Translations under genes and position numbers: made by a program
From: Bacteroidia bacterium
GTDB lineage: Bacteria; Bacteroidota; Bacteroidia; UKL13-3
Assembly (NCBI GenBank): GCA_018058135.1
Contig: JAGPCK010000011.1
Coordinates: 6 to 64,005 of the forward strand
DNA length: 64,000 nucleotides
Direction of reading: 5' to 3'
In this document: one piece after another, positions 3,138 to 29,635 of the stretch
How the letters are laid out: the number at the start of each line of letters is the position of its first letter
How positions within the stretch are numbered: the stretch's first letter is position 1
Notes under the pieces: generated by a model
Database searches by the model: none
What the model saw: only the letters and a program-made list of their open reading frames with translations
Told to the model about the DNA's origin: nothing

Positions 3138-4103
3138 ATGCCGCAAGCAGATGTGAAGATGAAGTACAACCGCATTCAGCAGTTGAAAAAAGAAAAAGAT
3201 GTAACCTTACTGGCCCACTACTATATGCCTGCCGAGTTGCAATGTAAAACCACACAAGGGGGCATTGCTGATTATGTGGGTGATTCACTCGGTTTAAGTG
3301 TAGAAGCACAAAACACCCCCGCCCGCAATATTTTATTTTGTGGTGTACGTTTTATGGCCGAAACAGCTTTGGTTATTAACCCCGGTAAAAATGTTTTTAT
3401 GCCCGATGTATCCGCAGGCTGTTCACTGGCTTCCAGTATCTCTGCTCAGGATGTACGTGATTTAAAAAAGCAATATCCCGGAGTGCCGGTAATGGGCTAC
3501 ATCAATACGTATGCAGAAACGAAAACCGAACTGGACATTTGCTGTACTTCCAGAAATGCAGTAGCCATTGCTTCATCGCTGGAGGGCGACCGGCTTATTT
3601 TTGTTCCCGATTTGTACATGGGGCAAAATTTGAAACGCGTAATTGAAAAACAATGCGGCAAAGAACTTATTCTTTGGAAAGGTACCTGTGAAGTGCATGA
3701 GCAGTTTAACAACGCTATGGTAGAAGTGGAAGATGGTGATACAGAAATTCTGATGCACTGGGAGGTGCCGGGTGATACCGTGAACACGCAGCTGTCGAAA
3801 CGCAAAGGCATAGTAGGCAGCACGGGAGATATTCTGCAGTATGTTCAACAAAGTAAGGCCACCAAATTTCTGCTTGCTTCAGAATGTGATTTAGGAGTGG
3901 CACTGAAAGAAATGAATGCCGGTAAGGAATTTATTACCCCCTGCATTAAGTGTGCATACATGAAACAAAATACACTGGAAAAAGTACTGCAGGCACTGGA
4001 AGCAATAGGTACAACAGAAGAAGCTAACTACCGCATTACGCTGGATGAGGAGGTATTGCAGAAAGCGCGTAAGCCCGTGTTGCGGATGTTAAATTATAAC
4101 TAA
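3138..4103 (+). CDS. nadA: Quinolinate synthase A
   Basis: LLAHYY, GDSLGLS, FCGVRFMAE, and three [4Fe-4S] Cys (AGCSLA, GTCEVH, CAYMK). Alternative start at ATG 3159. Confidence 0.95.
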   Translation: MPQADVKMKYNRIQQLKKEKDVTLLAHYYMPAELQCKTTQGGIADYVGDSLGLSVEAQNTPARNILFCGVRFMAETALVINPGKNVFMPDVSAGCSLASSISAQDVRDLKKQYPGVPVMGYINTYAETKTELDICCTSRNAVAIASSLEGDRLIFVPDLYMGQNLKRVIEKQCGKELILWKGTCEVHEQFNNAMVEVEDGDTEILMHWEVPGDTVNTQLSKRKGIVGSTGDILQYVQQSKATKFLLASECDLGVALKEMNAGKEFITPCIKCAYMKQNTLEKVLQALEAIGTTEEANYRITLDEEVLQKARKPVLRMLNYN

Positions 4104-5644: not shown

Positions 5645-6058
5645 TCAGCGATTCTCCCATTCCGCATAACAGGACTCTGTTTCGTAAAGACGAAGGCGCA
5701 TAAGAGCAATGTGCTGAGGTAAAAGCGGTTTTATTTTTTCTACCATGTAGCTCAGTAAATACTCGGCAGTTGGCTCACCATCAATCCAACAGATTTTGTT
5801 CACCAGGTTTTTGGTAGCAGAGAGATTGATGGTATTGCGTTTAAGCAGCAAGGAGTGGTCAAAGTCTTTGAGAATGCTGCTCTCTACAATTTTTTTCAAA
5901 TCCTTAAAATCGAAAAGAATATTGTTTTCATTAAAATTGGTGCCGGTTACGGTGACGTGTAGTTTGTAGCCGTGGCCATGTATTTCCCTGCATGAGCCGT
6001 TGTAGCCTGAAATAGCATGAGCCGCTTCAAACTGAAATATTTTTGTAACGCTAATCAT
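5645..6058 (-). CDS. queD: 6-carboxytetrahydropterin synthase (QueD/PTPS family)
   Basis: FEAAH, CxxxHGH, DFxDLK, DH, PTAE and LYET motifs. Confidence 0.9.
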   Translation of the reverse strand: MISVTKIFQFEAAHAISGYNGSCREIHGHGYKLHVTVTGTNFNENNILFDFKDLKKIVESSILKDFDHSLLLKRNTINLSATKNLVNKICWIDGEPTAEYLLSYMVEKIKPLLPQHIALMRLRLYETESCYAEWENR

Positions 6059-7232
6059 CGGAATATTGTCTACGTTTCATTTCTTTTTTGAGCATGTCGA
6101 GTTCGCGGTTCATTTGTCCGTTTACGGAGGTGTTTTCTTCAGCCCTGCGCATCAGGTAAGGGATGGCTTTTTCTACCTCGCCATAGGGCAAATATTTGGA
6201 AGCATGGTACCCATGAGCCGCCAGATTAAACGTGATGTGGTCGCTCATACCGTACAACTGTGAGAATTGCAATTTCTCCATCGGGTTGGTAACGTTGTAA
6301 CTCTTCAGGCAGTCAATGGCATATTGAACGCTTTCTTCATTGTGAGAAGCAATACAGGTAACCACCACATCATGATTTTGAAGACAAATTTCCGTGGCGG
6401 TGTTAAATGATTTATCTGTATCCGATTTTTTTTCAAACACCGGATTGGGTAAGCCAACCTCCGCAGCATGTCGGGTTTCTTTTTCCAGATAAGCTCCACG
6501 TACCAGTTTAATGCCGCATAAATACTTGTATTGTCGTGCCCGTGCAATGGCTGCTTGTAAATACGCTACTCTGTCGGTGCGGTACATTTGCAGGGTGTTG
6601 AATACAATTACCTTTTCGTGGTTAAATTGTTTCATCATTTGTTCGGTTAAGGAATCAATCACCTCCTGCATCCAGGTTTCTTCCGCATCAATGTACACCA
6701 TAATATTTTTTTCAGCAGCAGCACGGCAAATATCTTCAACGTGTTTTCTAAAACGGTTGTATCGGTTTTGTTGTGTCCCGCTCAGTTGATTGTGGGTGTG
6801 ATTAATTTGTGTGAGAAAATCAGGGTCTTCCAATCCTGTAAGTTTTACACTGATAAAATCTGCTTTTGTTCCGTTGACCTCAGCGTTGATGTTTGCAATT
6901 ATTTTTTCAGCATTGCGGCTGAAAGCTTCTTCACTTTTTTCGCCTTCCGATACATAGTCTAAAACAGCCATTACATTGTAATCGTGCAGGTGACGTATGG
7001 TTTGAAATGCTTCGGCTTCATTTTCTCCCGAGCAAAAAACCTTAAATACAGTAGAGCGGATAATTCCTTTGAAAGGCAGGTTGTATTGAAGAATCAGTTT
7101 GGCTGCATACGAGAGTATTTTTACCAACCAGGGGTAATGAAGCAAGGTAAACACCAGTTGGGTGAAACGTATTTCTTTATCCGTTTTGTGGGCATAAGCG
7201 GTTTTAAGTTCATTAAATGATAGCGTACTCAT
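6051..7232 (-). CDS. Monofunctional proline dehydrogenase
   Basis: IDAEE, NTLQMYR, KLVRGAY, ASHN, QLYGM and YLMRRAEEN motifs. Confidence 0.92.
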   Translation of the reverse strand: MSTLSFNELKTAYAHKTDKEIRFTQLVFTLLHYPWLVKILSYAAKLILQYNLPFKGIIRSTVFKVFCSGENEAEAFQTIRHLHDYNVMAVLDYVSEGEKSEEAFSRNAEKIIANINAEVNGTKADFISVKLTGLEDPDFLTQINHTHNQLSGTQQNRYNRFRKHVEDICRAAAEKNIMVYIDAEETWMQEVIDSLTEQMMKQFNHEKVIVFNTLQMYRTDRVAYLQAAIARARQYKYLCGIKLVRGAYLEKETRHAAEVGLPNPVFEKKSDTDKSFNTATEICLQNHDVVVTCIASHNEESVQYAIDCLKSYNVTNPMEKLQFSQLYGMSDHITFNLAAHGYHASKYLPYGEVEKAIPYLMRRAEENTSVNGQMNRELDMLKKEMKRRQYSDD

Positions 7233-7233: not shown

Positions 7234-8634
7234 TTATGCGAATTTTATCTCAGTGGATGTTTTTTCTTTTTTACGTGTTACCTGTTTGCGTTGTTTAATG
7301 TTGCAGGTAACGTAATTGCGCAGCAGCACAATAGCTAGTATGCCTAAGGTGATCATCAGTACAACACCTGAATACACAAAAAGCAGGAACCAGTTACTCA
7401 GTCCGCTCATCATAGTGCTGAAGGAAGTGGTAGTATTCCCCATTTGCCACAGTCCTTTTTCTATACCGGCTGCGTTAAGGGAGAACCAGAAAATAAACAA
7501 AGCTACTTGTGTGCCCCAAAAAGAAATGTTCAGCCATTTTTTATTTGCTTCAGCGGGATAGCAACCGGTGTTTAGGAATTCAAAACAAGCGGCCAGCAAT
7601 ATCATGGTGTTGATGCCGATGGTTGTTCCCATAGCATGAGCAACGGTAACGTGAGTACCGTGTGTATACAGATTAAGAGCAGGTACGGACATGATAATGG
7701 CCTGTCCCATGTTGATGAATACCCACAGTTCAGAAGCCATTAAAAAACGATACGGGAAGTAGTGGTAGTGCTTTTGCATGCTACTTATACTTTGTTTCCA
7801 GGTGTAAATGATGCGAGCAAAGAATATCCATTCCGTCATACTTACGGCATAACCTACATAACGTACATATGCATCGGTAGGAAGGGTGTAAACGTGGTGC
7901 CCCCAGTTAAACATGAGGTTAAACAATCCCAGAAAATACATGGCAAAAGAGAGTTTGCTGTAAGCCATTTTTTTATCCCCGCTTATTTTTTCCATCAGGA
8001 ATATAGCAGTGCCGTAAAGCAGTTGGTTCCATGAACCTACCAGCGAACCATTGGCTTTCCATTGAATGGTCATGTCGGTTACAAAGTGTTCGCGGAAGTA
8101 AGGAAATAACCAGAGATAGTTTTCGATAAAGGTGAAAAGGAAAAATACCAAACCGGTCATCCACATCCATAAGTATACGGGCCATTGCCGGATGGTTTTT
8201 GCCACTTTGATAAAGTTGATTATAAACATCAGCCAGGATATAGCAATAGGCAACGCAGGCCAAGGATTAAACTCCCAGTATTCTCTGCCGCCAAAATTGC
8301 TGTGCAGGTAATTGTAAAAAATCCAAACGATGGCAATTATCCATAAGGCCAGTTGTACTACAGCGATTCTGGCTGAAAGCAGGTGTCCGTATTTATGCCA
8401 CAACCCGCTGTACACGCAACCTGTTGCACCCAGTATAATCCAGAACAAAACGGAGGAAACGTGCATGGGGCGCAGCGCAGAAAAACCCACAGCAGAGTTC
8501 TTCCACAAGTCGGGATAGAGGTAACTGTGTGCTGCGGTTACACCTAAGCCTAATCCCAGCAATAGCATCAGCAGTGCCAACGCCAAAAATGTTTTAGCTA
8601 CAGGTTGAATAGTGTTAGTCATTTTGTTGTTCAA
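7234..8634 (-). CDS. Heme-copper oxidoreductase large subunit, NorB-like with non-canonical ligands (nNOR-like)
   Basis: About 12 hydrophobic segments; RPMH (H58), GREY, WGHH (H246/H247) and HGTHVTVAH (H333). The canonical HLWVEG aligns with NGSLVG and the canonical HxH with HAM. Confidence 0.8.
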   Translation of the reverse strand: MNNKMTNTIQPVAKTFLALALLMLLLGLGLGVTAAHSYLYPDLWKNSAVGFSALRPMHVSSVLFWIILGATGCVYSGLWHKYGHLLSARIAVVQLALWIIAIVWIFYNYLHSNFGGREYWEFNPWPALPIAISWLMFIINFIKVAKTIRQWPVYLWMWMTGLVFFLFTFIENYLWLFPYFREHFVTDMTIQWKANGSLVGSWNQLLYGTAIFLMEKISGDKKMAYSKLSFAMYFLGLFNLMFNWGHHVYTLPTDAYVRYVGYAVSMTEWIFFARIIYTWKQSISSMQKHYHYFPYRFLMASELWVFINMGQAIIMSVPALNLYTHGTHVTVAHAMGTTIGINTMILLAACFEFLNTGCYPAEANKKWLNISFWGTQVALFIFWFSLNAAGIEKGLWQMGNTTTSFSTMMSGLSNWFLLFVYSGVVLMITLGILAIVLLRNYVTCNIKQRKQVTRKKEKTSTEIKFA

Positions 8635-9034
8635 TCATTCCGTTCCACAATGTTTTGTAGGATGTGGGTCGTCCGTTTCCGGTAGCATCTGCTGCCCTTA
8701 GAAATGCCAGCAGCCGGGTAAGTTCTTCATCGGTTAAATCGAACACGGGCATTTGTTTGTTACCGCTTTTGAGTAAGGCATGAATGTAAGTGCTGTCTTT
8801 ACCGGGTGACGACATCAGGTTAGTTAAATCGGGTCCCAGATAGCCACCTAATCCATAGAGCTGGTGGCAACTCTGGCAGTTGTATTTTTGCCATACCAAA
8901 CGGCCTTCTCCGGCTTGTGAATTTGCAAGTTGCAATTCAGTTGTATGGCGTAACGGAGCAGTATAAATAGAGAAAGAATAGGCCAGAAAAAGCACACACA
9001 AAACAACAAAAATATGTCGCGGATGAATTTTCAT
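8615..9034 (-). CDS. NorC-like membrane-anchored monoheme cytochrome c
   Basis: N-terminal TM helix; GRLVWQKYNCQSCHQLYGLGGYLGPDLT matches the NorC pattern; Met in KQMP; overlaps the NorB-like gene. Confidence 0.85.
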   Translation of the reverse strand: MKIHPRHIFVVLCVLFLAYSFSIYTAPLRHTTELQLANSQAGEGRLVWQKYNCQSCHQLYGLGGYLGPDLTNLMSSPGKDSTYIHALLKSGNKQMPVFDLTDEELTRLLAFLRAADATGNGRPTSYKTLWNGMIEQQND

Positions 9035-10416
9035 AATTGCTCGAAACGTGCCTGAAAGAATCTTAAATATTTAGGTTCGTAGACCATTTTTAAGCCTTTG
9101 ATTTTGTCTCTGCGCTCCAACACAGCAGCAGCTGATTCGGCAATTACATCCATGTGTGCCTGTGTATATACCCTGCGCGGAATGGTGAAACGTACCAACT
9201 CCAGTTTAGGATAATAATTTTCTCCGTTGGCTTTTCTTCCGGCTGAAACAATGCCACGTTCCATGGTGCGCACACCTGAGTCAATATAAATTTCAGCAGC
9301 CAGTGTTTGTGCAGGAAACTGGTCTTGGGTAAGGTGAGGCAAAAATGCTTTTGCGTCTACAAATATGCCATGTCCGCCAATTGGCTTCACAATAGGGATA
9401 CCGTATTCTTCCATTCGATGCCCCAGGTATTCTACCTGACCTACACGTGCCTTCTGGTGATGGTCGTCAACACTTTCACCAATGCCCACTGCAATAGCTT
9501 CCATGTCTCTTCCTGCCAATCCGCCATAAGTATGCAAGCCTTCATATACTACTACCATATTGCGTGCTTCTTCATACACGTCCCATTCATTGGTGGCCAT
9601 AAATCCGCCAATGTTTACCAGGGCATCTTTTTTGGCACTCATGGTAGCACCGTCAGTGAGTGAACAAATTTCCTTCACAATCTCTTTCACTGATTTTGTG
9701 CTGTAACCTTTTTCGCGCTGTTGAATGAAGTACGCATTTTCAGCTACACGGGTCATGTCGTGTATAATACGTATACCGTGTTTTTTGGTATAGGCTCTCA
9801 GCTCTTTCAGATTTTTGATGCTGATAGGCTGTCCGCCTGCCATGTTTACATTGGTGGCAATGCTCACATACGGAATTTTTTCAGCTCCGTATTTTTTTGC
9901 CAGAGCTTCGAGTTTATTCAGGTCAACGTTACCTTTAAAAGGATGTTCGTTGAGCGGGTCATGTGCCTCATCAATGATAATATCGTGGAATTTTCCTCCG
10001 GCCAATTCCTGGTGCAGACGGGTAGTAGTGAAATACATGTTTCCCGGAACGATGTCTCCTTTTTTGATGAGAATCTTTGACAGAATGTTTTCAGCACCAC
10101 GACCCTGGTGTGTGGGGATGATGTATTTGTAACCGTAATACTTCTGAATAGCGGCCTCCATTTTATAGTAGCTGCTGCTGCCCGCATAGGCTTCGTCACC
10201 TAACATAAAGGCACTCCATTGGCGGTCACTCATGGCATTGGTTCCGCTATCGGTTAGCAGATCAATGTATACATCTTCTGAACGAAGTAAAAAGGTGTTG
10301 TATCCTGCTTCTTTCAGGGCCTTTACCCGTTGGGTACGTGTGGTCATTTTGAGCAGTTCAATCATTTTCATTCTGTAGGGCTCGGCCCATGAACGTTTGA
10401 TCAGTTGTTTTTTCAT
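9031..10416 (-). CDS. tpl: Tyrosine phenol-lyase
   Basis: DLLTDSGT and PLP Lys motif MSAKKD, with TPL-type specificity motifs GNMYFTTT and LRFF. Confidence 0.9.
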   Translation of the reverse strand: MKKQLIKRSWAEPYRMKMIELLKMTTRTQRVKALKEAGYNTFLLRSEDVYIDLLTDSGTNAMSDRQWSAFMLGDEAYAGSSSYYKMEAAIQKYYGYKYIIPTHQGRGAENILSKILIKKGDIVPGNMYFTTTRLHQELAGGKFHDIIIDEAHDPLNEHPFKGNVDLNKLEALAKKYGAEKIPYVSIATNVNMAGGQPISIKNLKELRAYTKKHGIRIIHDMTRVAENAYFIQQREKGYSTKSVKEIVKEICSLTDGATMSAKKDALVNIGGFMATNEWDVYEEARNMVVVYEGLHTYGGLAGRDMEAIAVGIGESVDDHHQKARVGQVEYLGHRMEEYGIPIVKPIGGHGIFVDAKAFLPHLTQDQFPAQTLAAEIYIDSGVRTMERGIVSAGRKANGENYYPKLELVRFTIPRRVYTQAHMDVIAESAAAVLERRDKIKGLKMVYEPKYLRFFQARFEQL

Positions 10417-10897: not shown

Positions 10898-12283
10898 TTA
10901 TATTTTTTCAAATTTGGCAGTGAAGTGTCTTAAGAAAGGTGGTTCATAGGTTATGCGGTAACCGTGCTGTTGTTGGCACATGTCTAGAATGTCGTCAAAT
11001 ACATCCAGTACATAATCAATGTGGCTTTGTGTGTATACTCTTCTGGGAATAGCTAAACGTACCAGTTCATTTTTGGCCGGCACCAGTTTACCGTCTTTAT
11101 CGTAATGCCCGAACATTACACTGCCCACTTCCACACAGCGGATGCCGCCTTTGATGTACAGGTCGCACACCAAAGCCTGTCCCGGATATTCTTCCACAGA
11201 TATGGCCGGGTACAATTTTTTAGCATCAATGTAAACGGCATGTCCGCCAATGGGCCACACTACCGGAATACCTTTGGCTTTGAGGTGTTCACCCAGATAA
11301 GCGGTGCTTCGAATGCGGTAGTGCAGGTAATCGGCATCAAACACTTCTTTTAGTCCGATGGCAAGCGCTTCCATGTCTCTGCCCGATAAACCACCGTAGG
11401 TAGAAAAGCCTTCAGAGATAATGAGTAGGTTGGTACATTTGCGGGCCATCTCTTCATCGCGCAGGGTAAGCAATCCACCCATGTTTACGAGTCCGTCTTT
11501 TTTTGCGCTCATCACAAAAGCATCACCCAAACGCAACATTTCTTTGGCAATTTCTTCGTAGGTTTTGTTTTCATAGCCTTGCTCACGGTGTTGTACAAAG
11601 TAACTGTTCTCTGCAATACGACAGCCGTCTATCACCAGGAGCAATCCGTGTTCGTTACATATTTTGCGCAGGCCTTTTACATTGGCCATGCTCACCGGTT
11701 GGCCACCTGAGGAGTTGTTGGTAACGGTAATAATTACTGCGGCAATTTTTTCTTTACCGTACTCTTTGATGAGTTCCTGTAGTTTATCTAAGTCGATGTT
11801 TCCTTTAAAAGGTAAATCAGCCTGCGGGTCCAGTGCTTCTTCAGGCAGAATATCAATGGCTGTTGCTCCTGTAAATTCTATGTTGGCTCGTGTAGTATCA
11901 AAGTGTGTATTGCTGATGAATATTTTATCGGGTCCGCCCAATAGGCCATACAAGATGCGCTCTGCTGCACGGCCCTGGTGGGTGGGTAAAATGTAAGGCA
12001 TGCCGGTAAGTTCTTTTACCACACTTTCCAAGTGCACCCAACTTCTGGCACCGGCATAACTTTCATCTCCCATCATAATGCCACTCCATTGTTTGTCACT
12101 CATGGCACCGGTTCCGCTATCCGTGAGCAGGTCAATAAATACATCATCAGAGCGTAAAAGAAACGGATTGTTTCCTGCTTTTTCCAGAGCAGTTTTGCGG
12201 TATTCTTCTGTAGTAATTTTGAGCGGCTCCACCATTTTTATTTTAAACGGCTCCGCCAGCGTACGTAATCTGTTATTCTCCAT
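10898..12283 (-). CDS. tnaA: Tryptophanase (tryptophan indole-lyase)
   Basis: DLLTDSGT and MSAKKD, with tryptophanase-type motifs SNTHFDTT and LRHFT. Confidence 0.88.
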   Translation of the reverse strand: MENNRLRTLAEPFKIKMVEPLKITTEEYRKTALEKAGNNPFLLRSDDVFIDLLTDSGTGAMSDKQWSGIMMGDESYAGARSWVHLESVVKELTGMPYILPTHQGRAAERILYGLLGGPDKIFISNTHFDTTRANIEFTGATAIDILPEEALDPQADLPFKGNIDLDKLQELIKEYGKEKIAAVIITVTNNSSGGQPVSMANVKGLRKICNEHGLLLVIDGCRIAENSYFVQHREQGYENKTYEEIAKEMLRLGDAFVMSAKKDGLVNMGGLLTLRDEEMARKCTNLLIISEGFSTYGGLSGRDMEALAIGLKEVFDADYLHYRIRSTAYLGEHLKAKGIPVVWPIGGHAVYIDAKKLYPAISVEEYPGQALVCDLYIKGGIRCVEVGSVMFGHYDKDGKLVPAKNELVRLAIPRRVYTQSHIDYVLDVFDDILDMCQQQHGYRITYEPPFLRHFTAKFEKI

Positions 12284-15801: not shown

Positions 15802-15815
15802 TTGACCTTAGTCAA
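15802..15815. promoter_or_regulatory. FNR-type operator TTGAC-N4-GTCAA (site 2), upstream of the 11-gene operon
   Basis: TTGACCTTAGTCAA lies 50 bp upstream of the GT2 start. A variant, ATGATATTGGTCAC, follows at 15824-15837. Confidence 0.75.
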
Positions 15816-15836: not shown

Positions 15837-16544
15837 CTAATCTTCAGTAGAAGACAGTTCGAGCAACTTGTTTTTGTTAAGAATGCGAATTTGTTTTTTA
15901 ATGAGTTGGATGAGTCCTTCTTCATCCCACTGATGTAGTGTGCGCACAGTGGTTTCCACCGCTATGCCGGTTATTCCGGCAATTTCTTCGCGGGTAAGGT
16001 GTATATTAATATAGCCTTCTTCTGTTTTGCCAAAGGATTGTTCCAGCAGAAGTAAGGTTTCAGCCAATCGCTCTTTGCTTGATTTTTGTAACAGGTTAAG
16101 TGCCCTGGTTTCAGCGTCACTGGTGTCGGCTGCAATCTTTGACATGATGTCGAGCGTAAAGTTTACGTTATGGGTAATAAACTCCAGAATTTTTTCTTTG
16201 GGAATAAAACAGATGATACTGTCTTCCATAGTTTCAGCAGTGGCAATGTAACGCCCGTTGCCCAATAAACCCCTGTAGCCTATCAGATCAGCTGATTTGG
16301 CTAAACGCACAATTTGTGTGCTTCCGTCATTCAGTGTTTTGTATAGTTTTACTTTCCCATCGTGTACACAATGCAATCCTTTTACTATATCGCCTTCGTG
16401 AAAGAGAATGTGCTTTTTCTTTACCTGAAAAGTGGTTTTGTGCTGATTGAGTGACTCCAGTTCATTCATGCGCAGGTTGCAAAAAGCTGAGGTGGCTTTG
16501 TGCTGGCAGCTGATGCAATCAATGGTATGGACTGTTTTTTTCAC
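15837..16544 (-). CDS. fnr: FNR-type Crp/Fnr regulator with N-terminal Cys cluster
   Basis: CISCQHKATSAFC plus an internal Cys (DSIICFIP), cNMP-binding fold and HTH (LTREEIA..ETTVR). Probable GTG start at 16544; the ORF track extends to 16667. Confidence 0.85.
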   Translation of the reverse strand: MKKTVHTIDCISCQHKATSAFCNLRMNELESLNQHKTTFQVKKKHILFHEGDIVKGLHCVHDGKVKLYKTLNDGSTQIVRLAKSADLIGYRGLLGNGRYIATAETMEDSIICFIPKEKILEFITHNVNFTLDIMSKIAADTSDAETRALNLLQKSSKERLAETLLLLEQSFGKTEEGYINIHLTREEIAGITGIAVETTVRTLHQWDEEGLIQLIKKQIRILNKNKLLELSSTED

Positions 16545-16653
16545 CGGAGTTACTTTGGTGCAAATATGTATAAATAAAGCCAAATATCTTTTTTCATTTT
16601 TATGATGCGGGTGATAAGCTGCATGGTGCCGGGAAATTTTTTGACAAAAAACA

Positions 16654-16667
16654 TTGACGCAGGTCAA
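16654..16667. promoter_or_regulatory. FNR-type operator TTGAC-N4-GTCAA (site 3)
   Basis: TTGACGCAGGTCAA lies in the divergent gap between fnr and the ~604-aa gene. Confidence 0.75.
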
Positions 16668-16737
16668 TTTTTTTGCAGGATAAATGGCGGTTTATTGACG
16701 GGTTTTAGTTTGAAGTATACTCTTGTCATTTAAAAAT

Positions 16738-18552
16738 ATGCACCACACTTTTCATATCCCTGTTTTGGGTTTAGCTTACTCCGTTGATACGCCTGTTAAA
16801 GTGGCCCGTTTCGGAATTTCATCTGTAGTTTCAGTTATTCAGCATGAGTTACTGGAGCAGATGCGCAAATTTCACAGCAGTCAATACAACCTTCCTTATA
16901 TGGAGATTACCGCCAAAGAGATTGATTTCAGAGCAAAGCGGGTAAAAGCCTATTTGAATATGTTGCAGGAGATTGTGAGCTTGCAACTCAATAAACTTAG
17001 AGCTGAAGCGTTTGAGGCCGATACGGATATTACCAACTACTTTAAAATGTTACCGGAGAAAAGTACCCTGAAAAAAATGTACTGCGACATGACTACTGCT
17101 GTGGGGGAGATGAAAGAAAACTTGTGTGAGAAGCTGAGGCAACAAATTACTGCCGGTAGTATTGATGTGAACATCATGACCAAAGTTGATAACCTGAATT
17201 ACGCTGCTGACGGGGAAACACTGCTGGCTCCTGAGTACTCGGATGCGTTATCTGCCTTACGTGGTTTTGCACAAAGTAATCTGGAGAGTTCGGTAGTTTT
17301 TTCAGCCGGTCTAAACCCCAAGCTTTACAGTTATATTGATACCTTTCCTGATTTTTTTCCTGATGAAAACGGACACCTGAAAAAGAAAATTATTCTTAAG
17401 GTGAGTGACTACCGCTCTGCATTAATTCAGGGTAAATTTCTGGCTAAAAAAGGAGTATGGATTTCTGAGTTCCGTATTGAATCAGGACTTAATTGCGGAG
17501 GACACGCTTTCGCCACTGATGGCTATTTACTTGGCCCCATTTTGCAGGAGTTTAAAGATAAACGGGAAGAGCTAAATGCAGAGTTGAAACAAACCGTAAA
17601 TGCTGCCTTAGCTGCAAAAAATCAGCCCTTGTTGCCATCAGCAATTCATGCACGTGTTACTGTTCAAGGTGGTATAGGCACAGGAGCTGAGGACGAATTT
17701 TTACGAGATTTTTACGGGGTAGATGCTACCGGATGGGGTAGTCCGTTCTTATTGGTGCCTGAAGCTACCAATGTAGATAATGATACGCTTCAGGGTTTAG
17801 CCACTGCACAACCTGATGATTATTACCTGAGCCATGCCTCTCCGTTGGGAGTACCATTTAACAATTTCAGAAAAAGCTCAGCGCAAAAATTACGTAATGA
17901 ACGCATGGAAAAAGGTCGTCCGGGTAGCCCGTGTTATAAAAAGCACCTCACCTTTAATAAAGAGTTTACAGCAGCACCTATATGTGAGGCATCACGGCAG
18001 TATCAGCACCTCAAGTTGCAGCAGCTGGTCGGTGAGGGGTTAACACCTGAAGCATTTAAAAAGCGAGTAGAGGAGATAACAGAAAAAGATTGCCTGTGTG
18101 AAGGACTTTCAGCAACCGCATTGCTCAAGAATAATATACCTGTGCCCCGTAACCTTACCGCAGTAACTATTTGCCCGGGCCCTAATCTGGCTTTCTTTTC
18201 CGGTGTGTTTACACTGGCTGATATGGTGGGGCATATTTACGGAAGAAAAAATTTGCTCAATCAGGTTTATCGCCCTCACATGTTTGTTAATGAACTGAAG
18301 ATATACATCAACTACCTGCAAACGGAAATTCAAAAAAGTTTACCGGAGCCTTCAGAGAAGCAGAAAAAATACTTCAAAAGTTTTTATGATAACCTGCAGC
18401 AGGGTATAGCATATTACCGCAGCATCATAACTCAGGCGGCACAGGATACGAAAGAAACATACCACACTTGGGTAAAAGATGTGGGTGAAGCCGAAGCCTC
18501 ACTGTTGCTCATCTTTGCAACCAGTGAAGGTGATACCTCTGTTTTGGTGTAG
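16738..18552 (+). CDS. Hypothetical protein, possibly a nitronate-monooxygenase/FabK-like FMN enzyme with extra Cys
   Basis: Long ORF (ATG 16738; track TTG 16723) containing ESGLNCGGH, VQGGIG, GWGSPFL, CLCEGL and ICPGPN. Confidence 0.6.
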   Translation: MHHTFHIPVLGLAYSVDTPVKVARFGISSVVSVIQHELLEQMRKFHSSQYNLPYMEITAKEIDFRAKRVKAYLNMLQEIVSLQLNKLRAEAFEADTDITNYFKMLPEKSTLKKMYCDMTTAVGEMKENLCEKLRQQITAGSIDVNIMTKVDNLNYAADGETLLAPEYSDALSALRGFAQSNLESSVVFSAGLNPKLYSYIDTFPDFFPDENGHLKKKIILKVSDYRSALIQGKFLAKKGVWISEFRIESGLNCGGHAFATDGYLLGPILQEFKDKREELNAELKQTVNAALAAKNQPLLPSAIHARVTVQGGIGTGAEDEFLRDFYGVDATGWGSPFLLVPEATNVDNDTLQGLATAQPDDYYLSHASPLGVPFNNFRKSSAQKLRNERMEKGRPGSPCYKKHLTFNKEFTAAPICEASRQYQHLKLQQLVGEGLTPEAFKKRVEEITEKDCLCEGLSATALLKNNIPVPRNLTAVTICPGPNLAFFSGVFTLADMVGHIYGRKNLLNQVYRPHMFVNELKIYINYLQTEIQKSLPEPSEKQKKYFKSFYDNLQQGIAYYRSIITQAAQDTKETYHTWVKDVGEAEASLLLIFATSEGDTSVLV

Positions 18553-19224: not shown

Positions 19225-21213
19225 ATGTACAAAAATAAAATAACCTTATGGACCGTGGTTGGAGTTACCGCAGTTCTTTATTTAGGTTCATGTAAACCTA
19301 AAAACACCAGTAATGCCGTAAGCGGAGATGCAGCATCTAAAGCATATGTTGCTCCCGGTAAGTATGATCAGTTCTATAATTTCGTGAGTGGTGGATTCAG
19401 CGGTCAAATGGCCGTTTACGGATTGCCCAGCGGAAGATTACTCCGGGTTATTCCGGTATTCTCTGTTGACCCTGAAAAAGCATGGGGTTACAGCGAAGAA
19501 ACTAAACCTATGCTGAACACATCACACGGATTTGTACCGTGGGACGATTTGCACCACCCGACATTATCACAAACTGACGGTCAAACAGATGGTCGCTGGG
19601 CTTTCGGTAATGCCAACAACACCCCGCGTGTAGCACGTATTGACCTAAAAACTTTCAGAACAGCTGAAATTATTGAATTGCCTAACAGTGGTGGTAATCA
19701 CTCATCGCCTTACCTTACTGAAAATACCGAGTACGTTGTAGCCGGTACACGTTTCAGTGTTCCACCGGATAATGCAAATGGTGATGTACCTATCAACTCT
19801 TACAAAGAAAACTTTAAAGGACACATCAGCTTTATCAGCATTGGTAAAGAAGGACAGATGGATATTGCCTTCCAGATTCAATGCCCAGGTGTAAACTTCG
19901 ACTTAAGTCGTGCAGGAAAAGGTAAATCACACGGTTGGTTCTTCTTCTCTTGTTACAATACTGAACAAGCTAATTCTTTGCTGGAAGTAAACGCTTCACA
20001 AAAAGATAAAGACTTCATTATGGCAGTGAATTGGAAAAAAGCAGAAGAGTACCTGAAAGCCGGAAAAGGTAAAAAAGTACCTGCTAAATATGCCCATAAC
20101 TATTACGATGAAAAAACACATACAGCTAAATCAGAAATCAGAACTGAGGTAACTATACTTGACTCCAAAGAACTGGCAGATATTTGCTACATGATTCCTT
20201 GCCCTAAATCACCACACGGTTGTGATGTTGATCCTTCAGGTGAGTACATTGTAGGTAGCGGTAAACTGGCAGCATTGATTCCTGTGTTCAGCTACACTAA
20301 AATTTTAGATGCCATTGCCGGTAAAAAGTTTGACGGAGATTACCAGGGCATTCCTGTGATTAAGTACGAAGCAGCTTTACACGGTGAAGTGAAAAAACCG
20401 GGTCTTGGTCCGTTGCACACCGAATTTGATGCGAACGGAAATGCCTACACTTCATTCTTTGTATCTTCAGAAGTAGTAAAATGGAACGTGAAAGACCTTA
20501 AAGTATTGGATCGTGTGCCTACTTATTATTCAGTTGGTCACTTATGTGTGCCCGGTGGCGATACCAAAAAACCTTATGGCAAATACCTGATTGCCTACAA
20601 CAAAATTACCAAAGACCGTTACCTGCCTACCGGACCTGAATTGTCGCAGAGTGCGCAGTTGTACGATATCAGCGGAGATAAAATGCAACTTATTCTTGAC
20701 TTCCCTACCATTGGTGAGCCTCACTATGCACAAGCTCTTCCGGCCGATTTGATTTCGAAAAACTCACTTAAAATATTCAAGATTGGCGAAAACATGCACC
20801 CTTATGTAACCAAAGGAGAAAAAGATGCTAAGGTGGTAAGAGAAGGTAACAAAGTACATGTGTACATGACCTCCATCCGCTCACACTTTGCACCTGATAA
20901 CATTGAAGGAGTGAGAATGGGAGATGAAGTATACTTCCACGTAACTAATCTGGAACAGGATTGGGACGTACCCCACGGTTTTGCTGTGAAAGGTGCCAAC
21001 AATTCAGAACTGTTGATTATGCCGGGCGAAACTTCCACCCTCAAATGGGTACCGGACAGAGTAGGAATTTTCCCGATGTATTGTACCGATTTCTGTAGTG
21101 CATTGCACCAGGAAATGCAGGGATACATTCGCGTGTCTCCGGCAGGCAGTAATGTGCCGCTTAAATGGAGCTTAGGTGAAAAAGCCCCGGCTACAGCTGA
21201 GGCAGGTAAATAA
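19225..21213 (+). CDS. nosZ: Clade II (Sec-type) nitrous oxide reductase
   Basis: Seven CuZ His (DLHH, GNHS, PHG, GPLH, GHL, EPHY), CuA site PHGF...CTDFCSALHQEM, lipobox LGSC and no Tat RR motif. Confidence 0.97.
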   Translation: MYKNKITLWTVVGVTAVLYLGSCKPKNTSNAVSGDAASKAYVAPGKYDQFYNFVSGGFSGQMAVYGLPSGRLLRVIPVFSVDPEKAWGYSEETKPMLNTSHGFVPWDDLHHPTLSQTDGQTDGRWAFGNANNTPRVARIDLKTFRTAEIIELPNSGGNHSSPYLTENTEYVVAGTRFSVPPDNANGDVPINSYKENFKGHISFISIGKEGQMDIAFQIQCPGVNFDLSRAGKGKSHGWFFFSCYNTEQANSLLEVNASQKDKDFIMAVNWKKAEEYLKAGKGKKVPAKYAHNYYDEKTHTAKSEIRTEVTILDSKELADICYMIPCPKSPHGCDVDPSGEYIVGSGKLAALIPVFSYTKILDAIAGKKFDGDYQGIPVIKYEAALHGEVKKPGLGPLHTEFDANGNAYTSFFVSSEVVKWNVKDLKVLDRVPTYYSVGHLCVPGGDTKKPYGKYLIAYNKITKDRYLPTGPELSQSAQLYDISGDKMQLILDFPTIGEPHYAQALPADLISKNSLKIFKIGENMHPYVTKGEKDAKVVREGNKVHVYMTSIRSHFAPDNIEGVRMGDEVYFHVTNLEQDWDVPHGFAVKGANNSELLIMPGETSTLKWVPDRVGIFPMYCTDFCSALHQEMQGYIRVSPAGSNVPLKWSLGEKAPATAEAGK

Positions 21214-28903: not shown

Positions 28904-29635
28904 ATGAACACATTAGTTTTAAAAAAAGTAGGGGAGTTGGTTGCGGAAGACTACCGCACAGCCGCTGTATTTCAATCTAACGGAATTGACTTTTGCTGCA
29001 AGGGAAACAGAACCATTGCCGAGGCTTGTGCAACGGCTCAGAAAGACGAAGCACAACTGCTTGTGCAACTGGAATCGGTATTGAATGCTCCGGGCAATAC
29101 GGCTATGGACTATGCCTCATGGCCGGCTGATTTGCTGGTGGATTACATTGAGAAGAAACACCACCGCTACGTAGTAGAACGCACTCCGGTGCTGCTGCAA
29201 TATCTCGATAAGTTGTGCAAGGTACACGGCAAAACCCACCCCGAACTGTTTGACGTTTTTCAGCAGTTTACAGCCTCTGCCAGCGAGTTGGCAGCTCACA
29301 TGAAAAAAGAAGAACTGGTATTATTTCCTTACCTGCGCAAAATTGCCGAGGCAATAAACAAAGGTGAAAACATTGAAAAGCCTCATTTTGGTACAGTTGA
29401 AAATCCCGTAGCCATGATGATGCAGGAACATGAAGTGGAAGGTGAGCGCTTCAGAACAATGGCCGTGCTTACGGATGATTACACCCCTCCGGCTGATGCC
29501 TGCAATACCTATAGAGTAACTTATGCATTACTCAAAGAATTTGAAGAAGACCTGCACCTGCACATTCACTTGGAGAACAATATTCTATTCCCTTGGGGCA
29601 TTGAGCAGGAAAAATTATTGGCTACCGCATCATGA
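28904..29635 (+). CDS. ric: Iron-sulfur cluster repair di-iron protein (Ric/YtfE/ScdA)
   Basis: GIDFCCKG, HH, HMKKEE..LFP, EH and HIHLENNILF motifs. Confidence 0.93.
   Translation: MNTLVLKKVGELVAEDYRTAAVFQSNGIDFCCKGNRTIAEACATAQKDEAQLLVQLESVLNAPGNTAMDYASWPADLLVDYIEKKHHRYVVERTPVLLQYLDKLCKVHGKTHPELFDVFQQFTASASELAAHMKKEELVLFPYLRKIAEAINKGENIEKPHFGTVENPVAMMMQEHEVEGERFRTMAVLTDDYTPPADACNTYRVTYALLKEFEEDLHLHIHLENNILFPWGIEQEKLLATAS

What the first reader, a model, noticed from the sequence alone, without database searches (positions are those of the whole stretch)
7234..9034. NorBC-like enzyme with His->Asn active-site and His->Met heme-ligand substitutions
Seen, by manual alignment to the cNOR pattern: HLWVEGxWE becomes NGSLVGSWN, so Asn195 (codon 8050-8052) replaces the first FeB His and both Glu are lost. 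HH (246/247) and H58 are kept. HxH becomes HAM, so His333 is kept and Met335 (codon 7630-7632) replaces the low-spin heme His. No cross-linking Tyr is evident. From memory (unverified), this matches the nNOR family proposed from genomes in heme-copper superfamily classifications, which I believe lacks biochemical characterisation. Inference: His/Met low-spin heme of raised potential and a 2-His/Asn metal site. Standard norB screens could miss it.
Basis: partly seen in the sequence, partly recalled or inferred. Interest (0 to 1): 0.85.

Follow-up and report, generated by a model that had tools for sequence, protein, structure and literature searches.

The report
NosZ-linked NorCB-like haem enzyme, altered site
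This gene pair encodes a membrane haem enzyme built like bacterial nitric-oxide reductase but lacking a metal-binding histidine and two catalytic glutamates; it belongs to a large untested Bacteroidota family that almost always accompanies the nitrous-oxide reductase NosZ, so it probably acts in NO/N2O turnover.

Summary
The sequence observation holds. The 466-aa haem-copper-superfamily protein (7234-8634, minus strand) reads NGSLVGSWN where cNOR has HLWVEGxWE, and HAM where cNOR has HxH. H58, H246/H247 and H333 are kept. These residues are invariant in 120 close homologues.

The "nNOR" label is wrong. Published nNOR derives from the B family, has a CuA-type subunit II and a cNOR-like 3-His+Glu site. 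This protein is sister to cNOR and has a NorC-type cytochrome c partner (8615-9034). It is probably the cNOR-related "N2O red" family that the same paper names but does not characterise.

"Asn replaces His" is not secure. Position 195 varies across the wider family, mostly Tyr. K193, G196 and N203 are invariant. Three of four alignments place G196 at the histidine position.

New here:
- In the organism's order, 43 of 47 genomes with the gene have NosZ, against 14 of 72 without it.
- All 10 NirK genomes carry it.
- The FeB-insertion factor NorQ tracks only canonical cNOR.
- In this window the gene lies 10.6 kb from a clade II nos cluster, behind shared FNR-type boxes.

Best reading (about 45%) is a cytochrome-c-fed NO reductase or scavenger with a remodelled, possibly FeB-free pocket. 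An N2O reductase role is not excluded.

The parts
7234..8634 (-). Haem-copper-superfamily subunit I, NorB-like (466-aa ORF; probable start ATG 8620-8622). It is a K-clade member of a family sister to cNOR.
   Evidence: Pfam COX1 scores 95.6 bits. The best PDB hits are cNOR NorB 4xyd_A and 3o0r_B. The AF2 model has pLDDT 93.4, and Foldseek gives TM 0.79-0.85 to cNOR and cbb3.
8615..9034 (-). NorC-like membrane-anchored monohaem cytochrome c (139 aa). It has CQSCH, the Met of KQMPVF and a G-G-Y motif matching the NorC Ca2+ site. Its stop overlaps the start of the subunit I gene.
   Evidence: The best PDB hits are NorC 3o0r_C (E 8e-11) and 4xyd_B (1.5e-8), aligned over the anchor and the haem domain. 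This gene sits immediately upstream of the HCO in 35 of 35 further loci.
8026..8064 (-). Helix VI segment Q191-W-K193-A-N195-G196-S-L-V199-G200-S-W-N203, which replaces cNOR WWVVH207LWVE211GVWE215. Codons: K193 8056-8058, N195 8050-8052, G196 8047-8049, N203 8026-8028.
   Evidence: K193, G196 and N203 are invariant in 63 family members down to 24% identity. Position 195 is variable.
7894..7899 (-). H246-H247, the two retained helix VII histidines of the non-haem metal site.
   Evidence: They align with GHH of cNOR and are invariant.
7630..7638 (-). H333-A-M335. H333 is the proximal ligand of the high-spin haem. M335 stands in place of the second His ligand of the low-spin haem.
   Evidence: H333 is invariant and M335 is conserved in at least 90% of members.
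8461..8463 (-). H58, the first ligand of the low-spin haem.
8272..8283 (-). E118 (invariant in 120 close homologues, >=90% in the wider family) and E121 in GGREYWEF. They match cNOR GREFLEQ Glu135 (Ca2+ ligand) and Glu138 (entrance of the periplasmic proton path).
7831..7833 (-). E268 in SMTE, matching cNOR Glu280 in SALE. It is invariant in the K clade.
9031..10416 (-). Tyrosine phenol-lyase. Its stop overlaps the cytochrome c start by 4 nt.
   Evidence: TIGR02618 scores 735 bits against a cut-off of 720.7. A lyase of this family lies beside cytc-HCO in 28 of 49 loci.
10898..12283 (-). Second beta-eliminating lyase, of the tryptophanase subfamily.
   Evidence: NF009709 scores 675 bits.
6051..7232 (-). 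Proline dehydrogenase, 1 nt downstream of the HCO gene.
   Evidence: Pfam Pro_dh scores 248 bits. It is directly downstream in 8 of 35 loci and in L017-L020.
5645..6058 (-). PTPS/QueD-family protein, the last gene of the run.
   Evidence: Pfam PTPS scores 105 bits. It follows the HCO, or HCO-ProDH, in 24 of 35 loci.
15802..15815 (.). Perfect palindrome TTGACCTTAGTCAA (CRP/FNR-type box), about 57 bp upstream of the first gene of the 11-gene co-directional run that contains the HCO.
   Evidence: Three perfect TTGAC-N4-GTCAA sites occur in the window against 0.12 expected, and 0 of 100 shuffles reach 3. Related boxes lie 26-142 bp upstream of cytc-HCO or lyase-cytc-HCO in 13 other loci.
16654..16667 (.). 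Second perfect box, TTGACGCAGGTCAA, 63 bp upstream of the fam5-cytc-nosZ genes.
15837..16667 (-). Crp/Fnr-family regulator with an N-terminal Cys-rich stretch (CISCQHKATSAFC).
   Evidence: Pfam cNMP_binding plus HTH_Crp_2. The best NCBIfam hit is Fnr.
16723..18552 (+). Conserved 609-aa protein with no family hit ('fam5'). It is a recurrent operon partner of cytc-HCO in other genomes, and here it heads the nosZ operon.
   Evidence: No Pfam or NCBIfam hit. It is present in 17 of 35 loci. A copy 50% identical precedes the cytc-HCO of a member only 26% identical to ours.
19225..21213 (+). Clade II (Sec-dependent) nitrous-oxide reductase NosZ. A lipoprotein cytochrome c lies upstream (18647-19204), and NosL-like, NosD, NosF, NosY and a truncated globin follow downstream (21280-25409).
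   Evidence: TIGR04246 scores 931 bits against a cut-off of 625.
28904..29635 (+). ScdA/RIC di-iron protein, a marker of nitrosative stress. A second Crp/Fnr regulator lies at 27561-28154 (-).

Best explanation
Shown: the pair 8615-9034 and 7234-8634 encodes a two-subunit, cytochrome-c-fed membrane haem enzyme with cNOR architecture.
- The small subunit is a NorC-type anchored monohaem cytochrome c.
- The large subunit is a 12-helix NorB-like protein that keeps the low-spin haem site, the high-spin haem histidine, two of the three non-haem-metal histidines, the Ca2+-bridge residues and Glu280.
- It belongs to a large, deep family, mainly in Bacteroidota, that is sister to cNOR.
- That family has lost the helix-VI histidine and Glu211/Glu215, carries invariant Lys193, Gly196 and Asn203 instead, and ligates the low-spin haem with His/Met.
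- The family does not travel with the FeB-insertion factor NorQ.
- It almost always travels with clade II NosZ, often within 3-17 kb and behind the same CRP/FNR-type boxes. NO-stress genes (RIC/ScdA, truncated globin) lie alongside.

Inferred: under low oxygen or N-oxide stress the FNR-type regulator switches on the operon. Electrons pass from the periplasmic cytochrome c pool to haem c, then to the His/Met haem b, whose potential is likely raised, and then to the high-spin haem. There a small N-oxide is reduced in a remodelled pocket that is polar, free of glutamate and possibly free of FeB.

The substrate I consider most likely is NO (2NO + 2e- + 2H+ -> N2O + H2O). The enzyme would then remove NO, an inhibitor of N2O respiration (recalled from memory; not looked up here), and hand its product to the co-regulated NosZ. 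It would also be the missing NOR of Bacteroidota that have NirK and NosZ but no canonical nor.

I am about 90% confident of the identity and about 45% confident of NO as substrate.
For: Architecture and lineage:
- Pairwise and profile hits rank cNOR first. 4xyd_A scores 99 bits and 3o0r_B 82 bits, ahead of cbb3 (76-53) and qNOR (61). No A or B family member appears at E<=10.
- hhalign against a cNOR alignment gives probability 99.8%.
- The tree is (A,(cbb3,(cNOR,(H clade,K clade)))) with 95-100 SH-aLRT support.
- The Foldseek ranking agrees.
- The small subunit is NorC-like, with CxxCH, the Met ligand and the G-x-Y Ca2+ motif.
- GREYWE matches GREFLE and SMTE matches SALE.

Selection: the key residues are invariant in 121 close sequences and 63 distant ones.

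Link to N-oxides:
- In the window the gene lies 10.6 kb from clade II nosZ, with nosLDFY, a truncated globin, ScdA and two Crp/Fnr genes nearby.
- Three perfect TTGAC-N4-GTCAA boxes occur against 0.12 expected.
- Related boxes lie ahead of the operon in 13 other loci.
- In the order (119 genomes) the HCO x NosZ table is 43/4/14/58, with odds ratio 44.5 and Fisher p 1.6e-15. The four exceptions are MAGs under 90% complete.
- 12 of 14 carriers from other families of the class have NosZ, against a phylum baseline of 103 of 300.
- At least 21 carriers have both genes on one contig.

Favouring NO over N2O:
- All 10 NirK genomes of the order carry the gene, and 6 of them have no canonical NOR.
- The dependence is one-way. 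Carriers nearly always have NosZ, but only 3 of 103 NosZ genomes in the phylum sample carry the gene. That fits a supplier or protector of NosZ better than a substitute.
- ScdA/RIC, DUF2249/DUF1858, Rrf2 and globin genes are neighbours.
- PMC12569097 notes that 9% of Bacteroidota with denitrification genes have nir and nosZ but no nor.
Against: - The residues lost are catalytic ones. His207 and Glu211 ligate FeB, and Glu215 lies in the same catalytic pocket. From memory, Glu211-equivalent mutants of cNOR are inactive.
- NorQ is absent from 41 of 47 carriers, so there may be no FeB.
- Six genomes of the order carry both a canonical cNOR and this gene. In G311 they sit in one gene run. This argues for a different or non-redundant reaction.
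- 35 of 47 carriers have neither NirK nor a canonical NOR, so any NO would have to come from outside the cell.
- The only published opinion on what is probably this family is N2O reduction (PMC11214002).
- NOD, which has a parallel His->Asn and Glu->Gln change, is thought not to be an NO reductase (PMC3413370).
- The recurrent partners (fam5, PTPS, Tyr/Trp lyases, ProDH) are not explained by NO reduction.
Confidence: 0.45

Rival explanations
1. It is a haem-based, membrane-bound N2O reductase (N2O + 2e- + 2H+ -> N2 + H2O). This is the 'N2O red' family that Murali et al. 2024 propose, citing the sulfide- and acetylene-insensitive, membrane-bound N2O reductase activity of Flexibacter canadensis. 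It would work beside NosZ as a second N2O sink that tolerates inhibitors.
For: PMC11214002 names exactly one further family 'closely related to cNOR', without the active-site tyrosine and with a novel active site, and links it to a Bacteroidota bacterium. Our family is sister to cNOR and is mostly found in Bacteroidota. It occurs in 4 of 300 sampled genomes of the phylum, the same order of magnitude as the paper's 293 GTDB genomes. Tight co-occurrence and co-regulation with NosZ fits two enzymes sharing one substrate. Loss of the FeB ligands and independence from NorQ fit a reaction other than NO reduction.
Against: If it could replace NosZ, carriers without NosZ should exist. In fact 55 of 61 carriers have NosZ. 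Among the exceptions only one genome is complete, and its copy is a distant one at 39% identity. All NirK genomes carry it. The paper gives no biochemical or residue-level argument in its main text. I could not verify that its family is ours, because the supplements are not held. I know of no N2O reduction at a haem site of this superfamily.
Confidence: 0.2
2. It catalyses some other reaction tied to its conserved operon partners (fam5, PTPS, Tyr/Trp lyases, ProDH). It might be a low-oxygen electron sink for amino-acid catabolism. It might scavenge O2 or peroxide to protect NosZ. Or it might act on a product of fam5 or the lyases. On this view the NorCB scaffold is reused with a Lys-containing pocket that holds no FeB.
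For: fam5-cytc-HCO is conserved even where the HCO is only 26% identical, while fam5 stays 50% identical. PTPS follows the gene in 24 of 35 loci, lyases accompany it in 28 of 49, and ProDH follows in 8 of 35. Canonical cNOR coexists with it and can sit beside it. K193 and G196 are invariant while position 195 varies, and many clades carry Tyr195. Some members are fused to FixO-type and further cytochrome c domains, as in cbb3 oxidases.
Against: No partner is universal apart from the cytochrome c. The lyases and ProDH are ordinary catabolic enzymes that an FNR-type regulon could include on its own account. O2 reduction by this superfamily needs the His-Tyr cofactor, which cannot form here. N195 versus Y195 does not track lyase adjacency. 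The fam5 fold could not be resolved: pLDDT was 60 and no Foldseek hit reached E<=0.001.
Confidence: 0.25
3. It is a member of the nNOR family.
For: It shares the His/Met low-spin haem ligation that PMC11214002 and bioRxiv 10.1101/592808 describe for nNOR.
Against: nNOR is related to the B family and to sNOR, has a CuA-type subunit II, and keeps the cNOR-type 3-His+Glu site. Here no B-family structure is hit at E<=10, the tree places the family with cNOR, subunit II is NorC-like, and the site lacks a histidine and the glutamate.
Confidence: 0.02
4. It is a decaying or non-catalytic NorB relic.
For: Canonical catalytic residues are missing.
Against: The frame is intact. Homologues number more than 2,200 at 90% clustering and 253 clusters at E<=1e-10. 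Nineteen columns are invariant down to 24% identity. The gene is translationally coupled to its cytochrome c partner, and its synteny and regulatory boxes are conserved.
Confidence: 0.03

Closest known systems
cNOR (NorCB, cytochrome-c-dependent nitric oxide reductase; structures 3O0R of P. aeruginosa and 4XYD of R. denitrificans)
   Same: It has the same two-subunit architecture, with an anchored monohaem NorC-type cytochrome c. The large subunit is 12-helix and NorB-like, with a low-spin haem, a high-spin haem histidine and the GHH pair. It keeps the Ca2+-site residues (NorB Glu135; NorC Gly-x-Tyr), Glu138, Glu280 and the NxYTHGT motif. cNOR is its nearest relative by sequence, profile and tree.
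   Different: The FeB ligands His207 and Glu211 and the nearby Glu215 are absent. The family-invariant Lys193, Gly196 and Asn203 stand in that helix instead. The low-spin haem is His/Met rather than bis-His. NorQ does not co-occur. The gene is linked to clade II nosZ rather than to nir. Sequence identity to cNOR is only about 20-25%.
'N2O red' heme-copper family of Murali et al. 2024 (PMC11214002), an uncharacterised putative N2O reductase
   Same: The paper describes it as closely related to cNOR, lacking the active-site tyrosine and having an unprecedented active site. It is linked to a Bacteroidota bacterium and is similarly rare. It is probably the same family; I put this at about 70%.
   Different: Identity could not be checked, because no sequences or residue description are held. 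My co-occurrence data show near-obligate pairing with NosZ, and all NirK genomes carry the gene. Neither result is what a stand-alone N2O reductase predicts.
nNOR (Murali et al. 2024; first mentioned in bioRxiv 10.1101/592808)
   Same: It shares the His/Met ligation of the low-spin haem and is also uncharacterised.
   Different: nNOR descends from the B family, has a CuA-type subunit II, a cNOR-like 3-His+Glu site and a conserved cytoplasmic proton channel. None of the first three features holds here.
NOD, the putative NO dismutase (qNOR-derived; Ettwig et al. 2012, PMC3413370)
   Same: It shows parallel remodelling of the catalytic pocket. One metal-binding histidine is replaced by Asn and a catalytic Glu by an amide residue.
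   Different: NOD is a fused qNOR-type protein without haem c or a quinol site, so it has no electron input. The enzyme here keeps a CxxCH cytochrome c subunit and an intact electron path. The two lineages are different.
cbb3-type cytochrome c oxidase subunit CcoN (the NCBI label for family members)
   Same: It shares the overall fold (Foldseek TM 0.81-0.83) and the D-x3-QW motif at the start of helix VI. Some family members carry fused FixO-type domains.
   Different: TIGR00780 scores 24.7 bits against a cut-off of 583. There is no CuB histidine in helix VI and no helix VII tyrosine (L240 stands there). The partner is NorC-like rather than CcoO/CcoP. A genuine cbb3 is encoded elsewhere in the genome.

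Membership tests
nNOR | [quoted passage not shown] | tested here: not met
   The profile search against PDB hits cNOR, cbb3 and qNOR only, with no ba3 or other B-family chain at E<=10. The tree places the family as sister to cNOR. Foldseek gives B-family E values of 1e-5 to 1e-6 against 1e-11 to 1e-13 for cNOR and cbb3.
nNOR | CuA-type (cupredoxin) subunit II | tested here: not met
   The adjacent, translationally coupled gene is a NorC-like monohaem cytochrome c.
nNOR | Same active-site residues as cNOR (3 His + Glu) | tested here: not met
   His207 and Glu211 are absent in every alignment register.
nNOR | Low-spin haem ligated by His and Met | tested here: met
   H58 is kept, and M335 stands in place of His349.
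cNOR (NorCB) | NorC monohaem cytochrome c subunit with a membrane anchor | tested here: met
   3o0r_C hits at E 8e-11 over residues 8-115. CxxCH and the Met ligand are conserved.
cNOR (NorCB) | FeB site of three His plus Glu211 | tested here: not met
   Only H246 and H247 remain. N195 or G196 stands at the His207 position, and V199 or G200 at Glu211.
cNOR (NorCB) | Bis-His low-spin haem b | tested here: not met
   M335 replaces the second histidine and is conserved in at least 90% of the family.
cNOR (NorCB) | Proximal His of haem b3, Ca2+ bridge (NorB Glu135, NorC Gly71/Tyr73) and Glu280 | tested here: met
   H333, E118, the G-G-Y motif of the cytochrome c, and E268 are all present. This rests on sequence only.
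cNOR (NorCB) | Co-occurrence with the FeB-insertion factors NorQ/NorD | tested here: not met
   NorQ (PF08406) occurs in exactly the 7 genomes of the order that have a canonical cNOR. It is absent from the other 41 carriers, including this genome.
cNOR (NorCB) | NO reductase activity | not testable with these tools
   This needs an enzyme assay.
'N2O red' HCO family (Murali et al. 2024) | Closely related to cNOR within the C-family/NOR branch | tested here: met
'N2O red' HCO family (Murali et al. 2024) | No active-site tyrosine and a novel active-site structure | tested here: inconclusive
The paper's main text gives no residues to compare, and its supplements are not held.
'N2O red' HCO family (Murali et al. 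2024) | Present in Flexibacter (Solitalea) canadensis, and N2O reductase activity | not testable with these tools
cbb3 oxidase subunit I (CcoN) | Scores above the equivalog cut-off; CuB with three His; helix VII Tyr | tested here: not met
   TIGR00780 scores 24.7 against a cut-off of 583. The helix VI histidine is absent, and L240 stands at the tyrosine position.
NOD (NO dismutase) | qNOR-type fused protein with no electron entry | tested here: not met
   A separate CxxCH cytochrome c subunit is present, and the protein has 466 aa with no N-terminal qNOR domain.

The most novel reading that the evidence does not exclude
The family is a new catalytic class within the heme-copper superfamily. 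It would be a cytochrome-c-fed reductase whose distal pocket holds no FeB or CuB. An invariant Lys (K193) would reach into the space opened by an invariant Gly (G196) at the old histidine position, next to two histidines and Asn203. Electrons would arrive through a high-potential His/Met haem b. The enzyme would be functionally tied to NosZ. It would either reduce NO by a haem-only mechanism or act as the long-sought second, acetylene- and sulfide-insensitive N2O reductase of Bacteroidota.
Probability: 0.3. Interest if true: 0.85.

Novelty: new variant of a known kind. Interest (0 to 1): 0.66.

Why it matters
According to PMC12569097, Bacteroidota are the main 'terminators' of denitrification, holding nosZ without nir, and 9% of those with denitrification genes have nir and nosZ but no recognised nor.

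A NorCB-like enzyme that accompanies NosZ in about 90% of its carriers, and that is present in every NirK genome of this order, bears directly on budgets of N2O production and consumption.
- If it reduces NO, gene-based surveys under-count N2O producers where it is labelled cbb3. They mis-assign its mechanism where it is labelled norB.
- If it reduces N2O, it is a second type of biological sink for this greenhouse gas.

It is also a natural experiment for enzymology. It tests what the NOR scaffold can do without the FeB histidine and glutamates, and with a His/Met haem.

The family has been named in print at most once and has no published biochemistry. The NosZ, NirK and NorQ statistics here give concrete predictions to test.

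Tried and rejected
1. nNOR membership was rejected on lineage, subunit II and active site.

2. I looked for a canonical FNR box TTGAT-N4-ATCAA. There was no perfect site, and 1-mismatch sites were at chance level. The real motif is TTGAC-N4-GTCAA, or ATGAY-N4-RTCAT in relatives.

3. I asked whether free phenol from the adjacent tyrosine phenol-lyase stands in for a missing active-site Tyr. If so, N195-type enzymes should sit beside the lyase and Y195-type enzymes should not. The counts were N with lyase 17 and without 16, and Y with lyase 7 and without 3. There is no association.

4. I tried to infer the fam5 function from structure. With a 7-sequence alignment the model reached only pLDDT 60. 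Foldseek gave weak TIM-barrel hits, with nitronate monooxygenase on top at E 3e-3 and TM 0.26-0.39. This is unresolved.

5. I tried to find cultured carriers through cluster members. Only MAG and metagenome records carry names.

7. The supplements of PMC11214002, which would settle the family identity, are not held.

8. The helix VI register could not be fixed from the AF2 model, because the tool returns no coordinates. DSSP shows only an unbroken helix from 184 to 218.

9. The own-genome search found no NirK, NirS, cNOR, qNOR or NorQ. The MAG is only 84% complete, so absence is not proven.


Full report
**1. What is there**

On the minus strand, a 139-aa ORF (8615-9034) and a 466-aa ORF (7234-8634) overlap.
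- The small protein has an N-terminal hydrophobic anchor, a CQSCH motif and a KQMPVF methionine.
- Its best solved relatives are NorC of P. aeruginosa (3o0r_C, E 8e-11) and of R. denitrificans (4xyd_B, 1.5e-8). The alignment runs over almost its whole length and includes the G-x-Y motif that supplies the NorC Ca2+ ligands.
- The large protein matches Pfam COX1 at 95.6 bits.
- It scores far below the cbb3 equivalog cut-off, with TIGR00780 at 24.7 bits against 583.
- Its only significant PDB sequence hits are the two cNOR NorB chains.

Close homologues start at residue 5.

**2. The observation**

| This protein | cNOR | Meaning |
|---|---|---|
| NGSLVGSWN (195-203) | HLWVEGxWE | N195 / His207, V199 / Glu211, N203 / Glu215 |
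| H246-H247 | GHH pair | two helix VII histidines kept |
| AH333AM335 | AHGH | H333 kept, M335 / His349 |
| H58 | His60 | low-spin haem ligand kept |

In 121 sequences of 59-95% identity, N195, N203, M335, H58, H246, H247 and H333 never vary. This is therefore a selected state and not decay.

**3. A caveat on "Asn replaces His"**

I searched 1.84 billion cluster representatives. This found 388 clusters at E<=1e-3 and 121 at E<=1e-30.

Across 79 full-length representatives down to about 25% identity, position 195 is not conserved. Tyr is the commonest residue, and N, Q, F, A, T, L, G, M, V, C and I all occur.

In a 63-sequence alignment the invariant helix-VI residues are K193, G196 and N203. 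Q191 and W192 are conserved in at least 90% of sequences.

The stretch D187..K214 is one residue shorter than in cNOR, so the register is ambiguous.
- Pairwise HMMER puts N195 at the His207 position.
- MAFFT and profile-profile hhalign put the invariant G196 there.
- This genome's own cbb3 reads VQDALVQWWYGH. The family reads TDMTIQWKANG. The shared D-x3-QW anchor again places G196 at the histidine.

K193 would then lie one turn above a glycine-lined gap (G196, G200), with N203 two turns below.

A sister clade, the "H clade", has QWH at this place, that is, His where ours has K193.

The AF2 model is confident, with pLDDT 93.4 and pTM 0.93. It shows helix 184-218 unbroken, but the tool returns no coordinates, so I could not settle the register.

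The robust points are these:
- The helix-VI histidine, Glu211 and Glu215 are gone in every register.
- No His-Tyr cofactor can form.
- "2-His/Asn metal site" is one possibility among several.

**4. Lineage**

- A family profile hits cNOR at 99 and 82 bits, cbb3 CcoN at 76-53 bits and qNOR at 61 bits. It hits no A- or B-family oxidase at E<=10.
- hhalign against six cNOR sequences, four of them from the same bacterial order, gives 99.8% probability.
- A maximum-likelihood tree gives (A family,(cbb3,(cNOR,(H clade,K clade)))) with SH-aLRT support of 95-100. The query lies in the K clade.
- Foldseek ranks cbb3 and cNOR at TM 0.79-0.85, qNOR at 0.69-0.76, and the A and B families well behind.
- The family keeps the NOR-type GREYWE and GREFLE motif (Glu135 and Glu138), SMTE and SALE (Glu280), and NxYTHGT.

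**5. Comparison with the literature**

Murali et al. 2024 (PMC11214002) describe nNOR as follows:
- It is related to the B family.
- It has a CuA-type subunit II.
- It has a His/Met low-spin haem, which they expect to be about 150 mV higher in potential.

[quoted passage not shown] It cites work on Flexibacter canadensis, a Bacteroidota bacterium, and counts 293 GTDB genomes.

Our family is sister to cNOR and mostly in Bacteroidota. It is present in 4 of 300 evenly drawn genomes of the phylum. I think it is that family, at about 70%. The paper's main text gives no residues, and its supplements are not held.

NOD, the putative NO dismutase, shows a parallel His->Asn and Glu->Gln change on a qNOR scaffold that has lost its electron entry (PMC3413370). 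Here the electron entry is intact.

Public annotation is inconsistent. IMG calls members "nitric oxide reductase subunit B", and NCBI calls them "cbb3-type cytochrome c oxidase subunit I".

**6. Context in the window**

The gene is ninth in a run of eleven co-directional genes whose junctions range from a 20-nt overlap to a 17-nt gap. The run is:
- GT2, RmlC, an epimerase and an RmlD-like gene
- a tryptophanase-type lyase, OsmC and tyrosine phenol-lyase
- the cytochrome c, the HCO, proline dehydrogenase and PTPS/QueD

Ahead of the run lies a perfect palindrome, TTGACCTTAGTCAA (15802-15815), and then a Crp/Fnr-family regulator with an N-terminal Cys-rich stretch.

A second perfect box (16654-16667) serves the divergent operon. 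That operon comprises:
- a conserved 609-aa protein with no family hit ("fam5")
- a lipoprotein cytochrome c
- clade II NosZ (TIGR04246, 931 bits)
- NosL-like, NosD, NosF and NosY proteins
- a truncated globin

Further on are a fasciclin gene with its own box, a second Crp/Fnr gene and ScdA/RIC.

Three perfect boxes occur against 0.12 expected, and 0 of 100 shuffles reach three.

**7. Context elsewhere**

In 35 further loci from the order and the class:

| Neighbour of the HCO | Loci out of 35 |
|---|---|
| cytochrome c immediately upstream | 35 |
| PTPS downstream | 24 |
| NosZ within the fetched stretch | 19 |
| fam5 in the locus | 17 |
| a Tyr/Trp lyase | 15 |
| an FNR-like regulator | 11 |
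| ScdA | 10 |
| ProDH directly downstream | 8 |

Some fetched stretches were positioned so as to include a nosZ gene whose place was already known, so the NosZ count is biased upwards.

More distant contigs show the order fam5, lyase, cytochrome c, HCO, ProDH. Beside them lie ScdA/hemerythrin, DUF2249/DUF1858, Rrf2 and the anaerobic ribonucleotide reductase.

fam5 even precedes the cytochrome c and HCO of an H-clade member that is 26% identical to ours. There fam5 itself is 50% identical.

Boxes of the form [AT]TGA[CT]-N4-[GA]TCA[AT] lie 26-142 bp upstream of cytc-HCO in 5 loci, lyase-cytc-HCO in 8, fam5 in 4 and the fasciclin gene in 12.

**8. Co-occurrence**

In the organism's order (119 species genomes), 47 carry the gene and 57 carry NosZ.

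| | NosZ present | NosZ absent |
|---|---|---|
| HCO present | 43 | 4 |
| HCO absent | 14 | 58 |

- The odds ratio is 44.5 and Fisher p is 1.6e-15. This is not corrected for phylogeny.
- The four carriers without NosZ are MAGs of 68-89% completeness.
- At least 21 genomes have both genes on one contig, 3-17 kb apart.
- Twelve of 14 carriers from other families of the class have NosZ, against 103 of 300 in the phylum sample.
- Only 3 of those 103 NosZ genomes carry the HCO, so the dependence is one-way.
- NirK above its cut-off occurs in 10 genomes of the order. All ten are carriers (Fisher p 4.9e-5).
- NirS is effectively absent.
- Canonical cNOR, at 48-52% identity to 3o0r_B, occurs in 7 genomes, 6 of them carriers.
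- In G311 the run reads cytochrome c, HCO, PTPS, NorC, NorB, ScdA and NorQ, with NosZ 13 kb further on.
- Six NirK+NosZ genomes have the HCO as their only NOR-like gene.
- NorQ (PF08406) occurs in exactly the seven cNOR genomes and in none of the other 41 carriers.
- This genome, at 84% completeness, shows no NirK, NirS, cNOR, qNOR or NorQ.

**9. Interpretation**

The scaffold, the electron entry and the Ca2+/haem framework are those of cNOR. The distal pocket has been rebuilt, and the FeB-insertion chaperone is not needed. The gene belongs to an FNR-type low-oxygen/N-oxide regulon and is close to obligately paired with NosZ.

Several things lead me to favour NO reduction or scavenging that feeds and protects N2O respiration, at about 45%:
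- The dependence on NosZ is one-way.
- Every NirK genome of the order carries the gene, and six of them have no other NOR.
- The neighbours are NO-stress genes.
- From memory, NO inhibits N2O respiration. I did not look this up here.

The N2O-reductase proposal of Murali et al. remains open, at about 20%. Its main difficulty is that the gene almost never occurs without NosZ.

A different reaction, tied to fam5, PTPS and the amino-acid lyases, cannot be dismissed, at about 25%. The coexistence of canonical cNOR in the same cluster points that way.

The raised potential of the His/Met haem is inferred by analogy with what the authors say for nNOR.

**10. Verdict**

The family label and the "Asn ligand" reading are wrong or unproven.

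The object is a member of a large, uncharacterised, cNOR-sister family that has at most been named in print. The new, testable facts are its NosZ linkage, its presence in every NirK genome of the order, its independence from NorQ, and the invariant Lys/Gly/Asn helix-VI pattern.

Earlier notes from this scan on other genomes had reached the "uncharacterised cNOR-like family" reading, the invariant lysine and the lyase pairing. I re-derived those points independently here.

Noticed in passing
window 16723-18552 (+); also L060:256-2076 and fam5 genes in L008-L012, L017, L019: A conserved 600-609-aa cytoplasmic protein has no Pfam, NCBIfam or PDB sequence match. It carries a GLNCGGHAF motif and five invariant Cys in its C-terminal half. 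It travels with the cytc-HCO pair across both clades and stays 50% identical where the HCO is only 26% identical. In this window it heads the nosZ operon. Its secondary structure alternates strand and helix like a TIM barrel, and nitronate monooxygenase is the weak top Foldseek hit.
   Followed up: partly
window 9031-10416 and 10898-12283 (-); 28 of 49 related loci: Tyrosine phenol-lyase, very conserved at 76-90% identity, sits directly upstream of cytc-HCO in many Bacteroidota, often with a tryptophanase-type paralogue, behind the same FNR-type box. Phenol and indole production may therefore be switched on together with low-oxygen N-oxide respiration. Both enzymes can also, from memory, desulfhydrate cysteine. 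I did not test whether they could supply sulfide for the CuZ centre of NosZ.
   Followed up: partly
window 5645-6058 (-); 24 of 35 related loci: A PTPS/QueD-family gene is the most constant neighbour of the HCO after its cytochrome c. In G311 it sits between the HCO and a canonical norCB. No explanation was found.
   Followed up: no
window 3073-3086: A third perfect TTGAC-N4-GTCAA box lies between a 253-aa unknown gene (2277-3038, -) and a 321-aa ORF (3138-4103, +) followed by a 509-aa ORF (4110-5639). By eye these look like nadA and nadB, but I did not run them against any family library. If so, NAD synthesis genes may belong to the same regulon.
   Followed up: no
proteins P0224, P0233, P0242-P0270 (H clade); L060-L063: A sister clade of the family has QWH-x-[IL]-D in helix VI and GHHHY in helix VII, lacks the Glu280 equivalent and keeps the His/Met haem. 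It also has a small cytochrome c upstream. One member has fam5 upstream, and another lies among two-component sensor genes and an ApbE gene.
   Followed up: partly
proteins P0138, P0148, P0177, P0194: These family members of about 790-820 aa are fusions of the HCO domain with a FixO (CcoO)-like domain and one or two further cytochrome c domains. This is a cbb3-style electron-entry module on the variant catalytic subunit.
   Followed up: partly
window 25681-26259 (-) with box at 26293-26306; 12 related loci: A fasciclin-domain gene carries the same palindromic box 26-52 bp upstream of its start in 12 loci and lies next to nos genes. It appears to be a core member of the regulon, but its role is unknown.
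   Followed up: no
G000 contigs C27 and C34 (L002, L003): The first 197 residues of the cbb3 CcoNO fusion appear at the end of a second contig, with the same leading residues as the full copy. This is probably an assembly duplicate at a contig end and not a second gene.
   Followed up: no
G375, G376, G379 versus G377, G378 (same genus as the window; L036-L038): Species of the window's own genus carry two different versions of the HCO, at about 95% and about 50% identity to ours, in different arrangements. In the second version the order is nosZ, then divergently FNR, cytochrome c, HCO, fam5 and PTPS. This suggests replacement or transfer within the genus.
   Followed up: no
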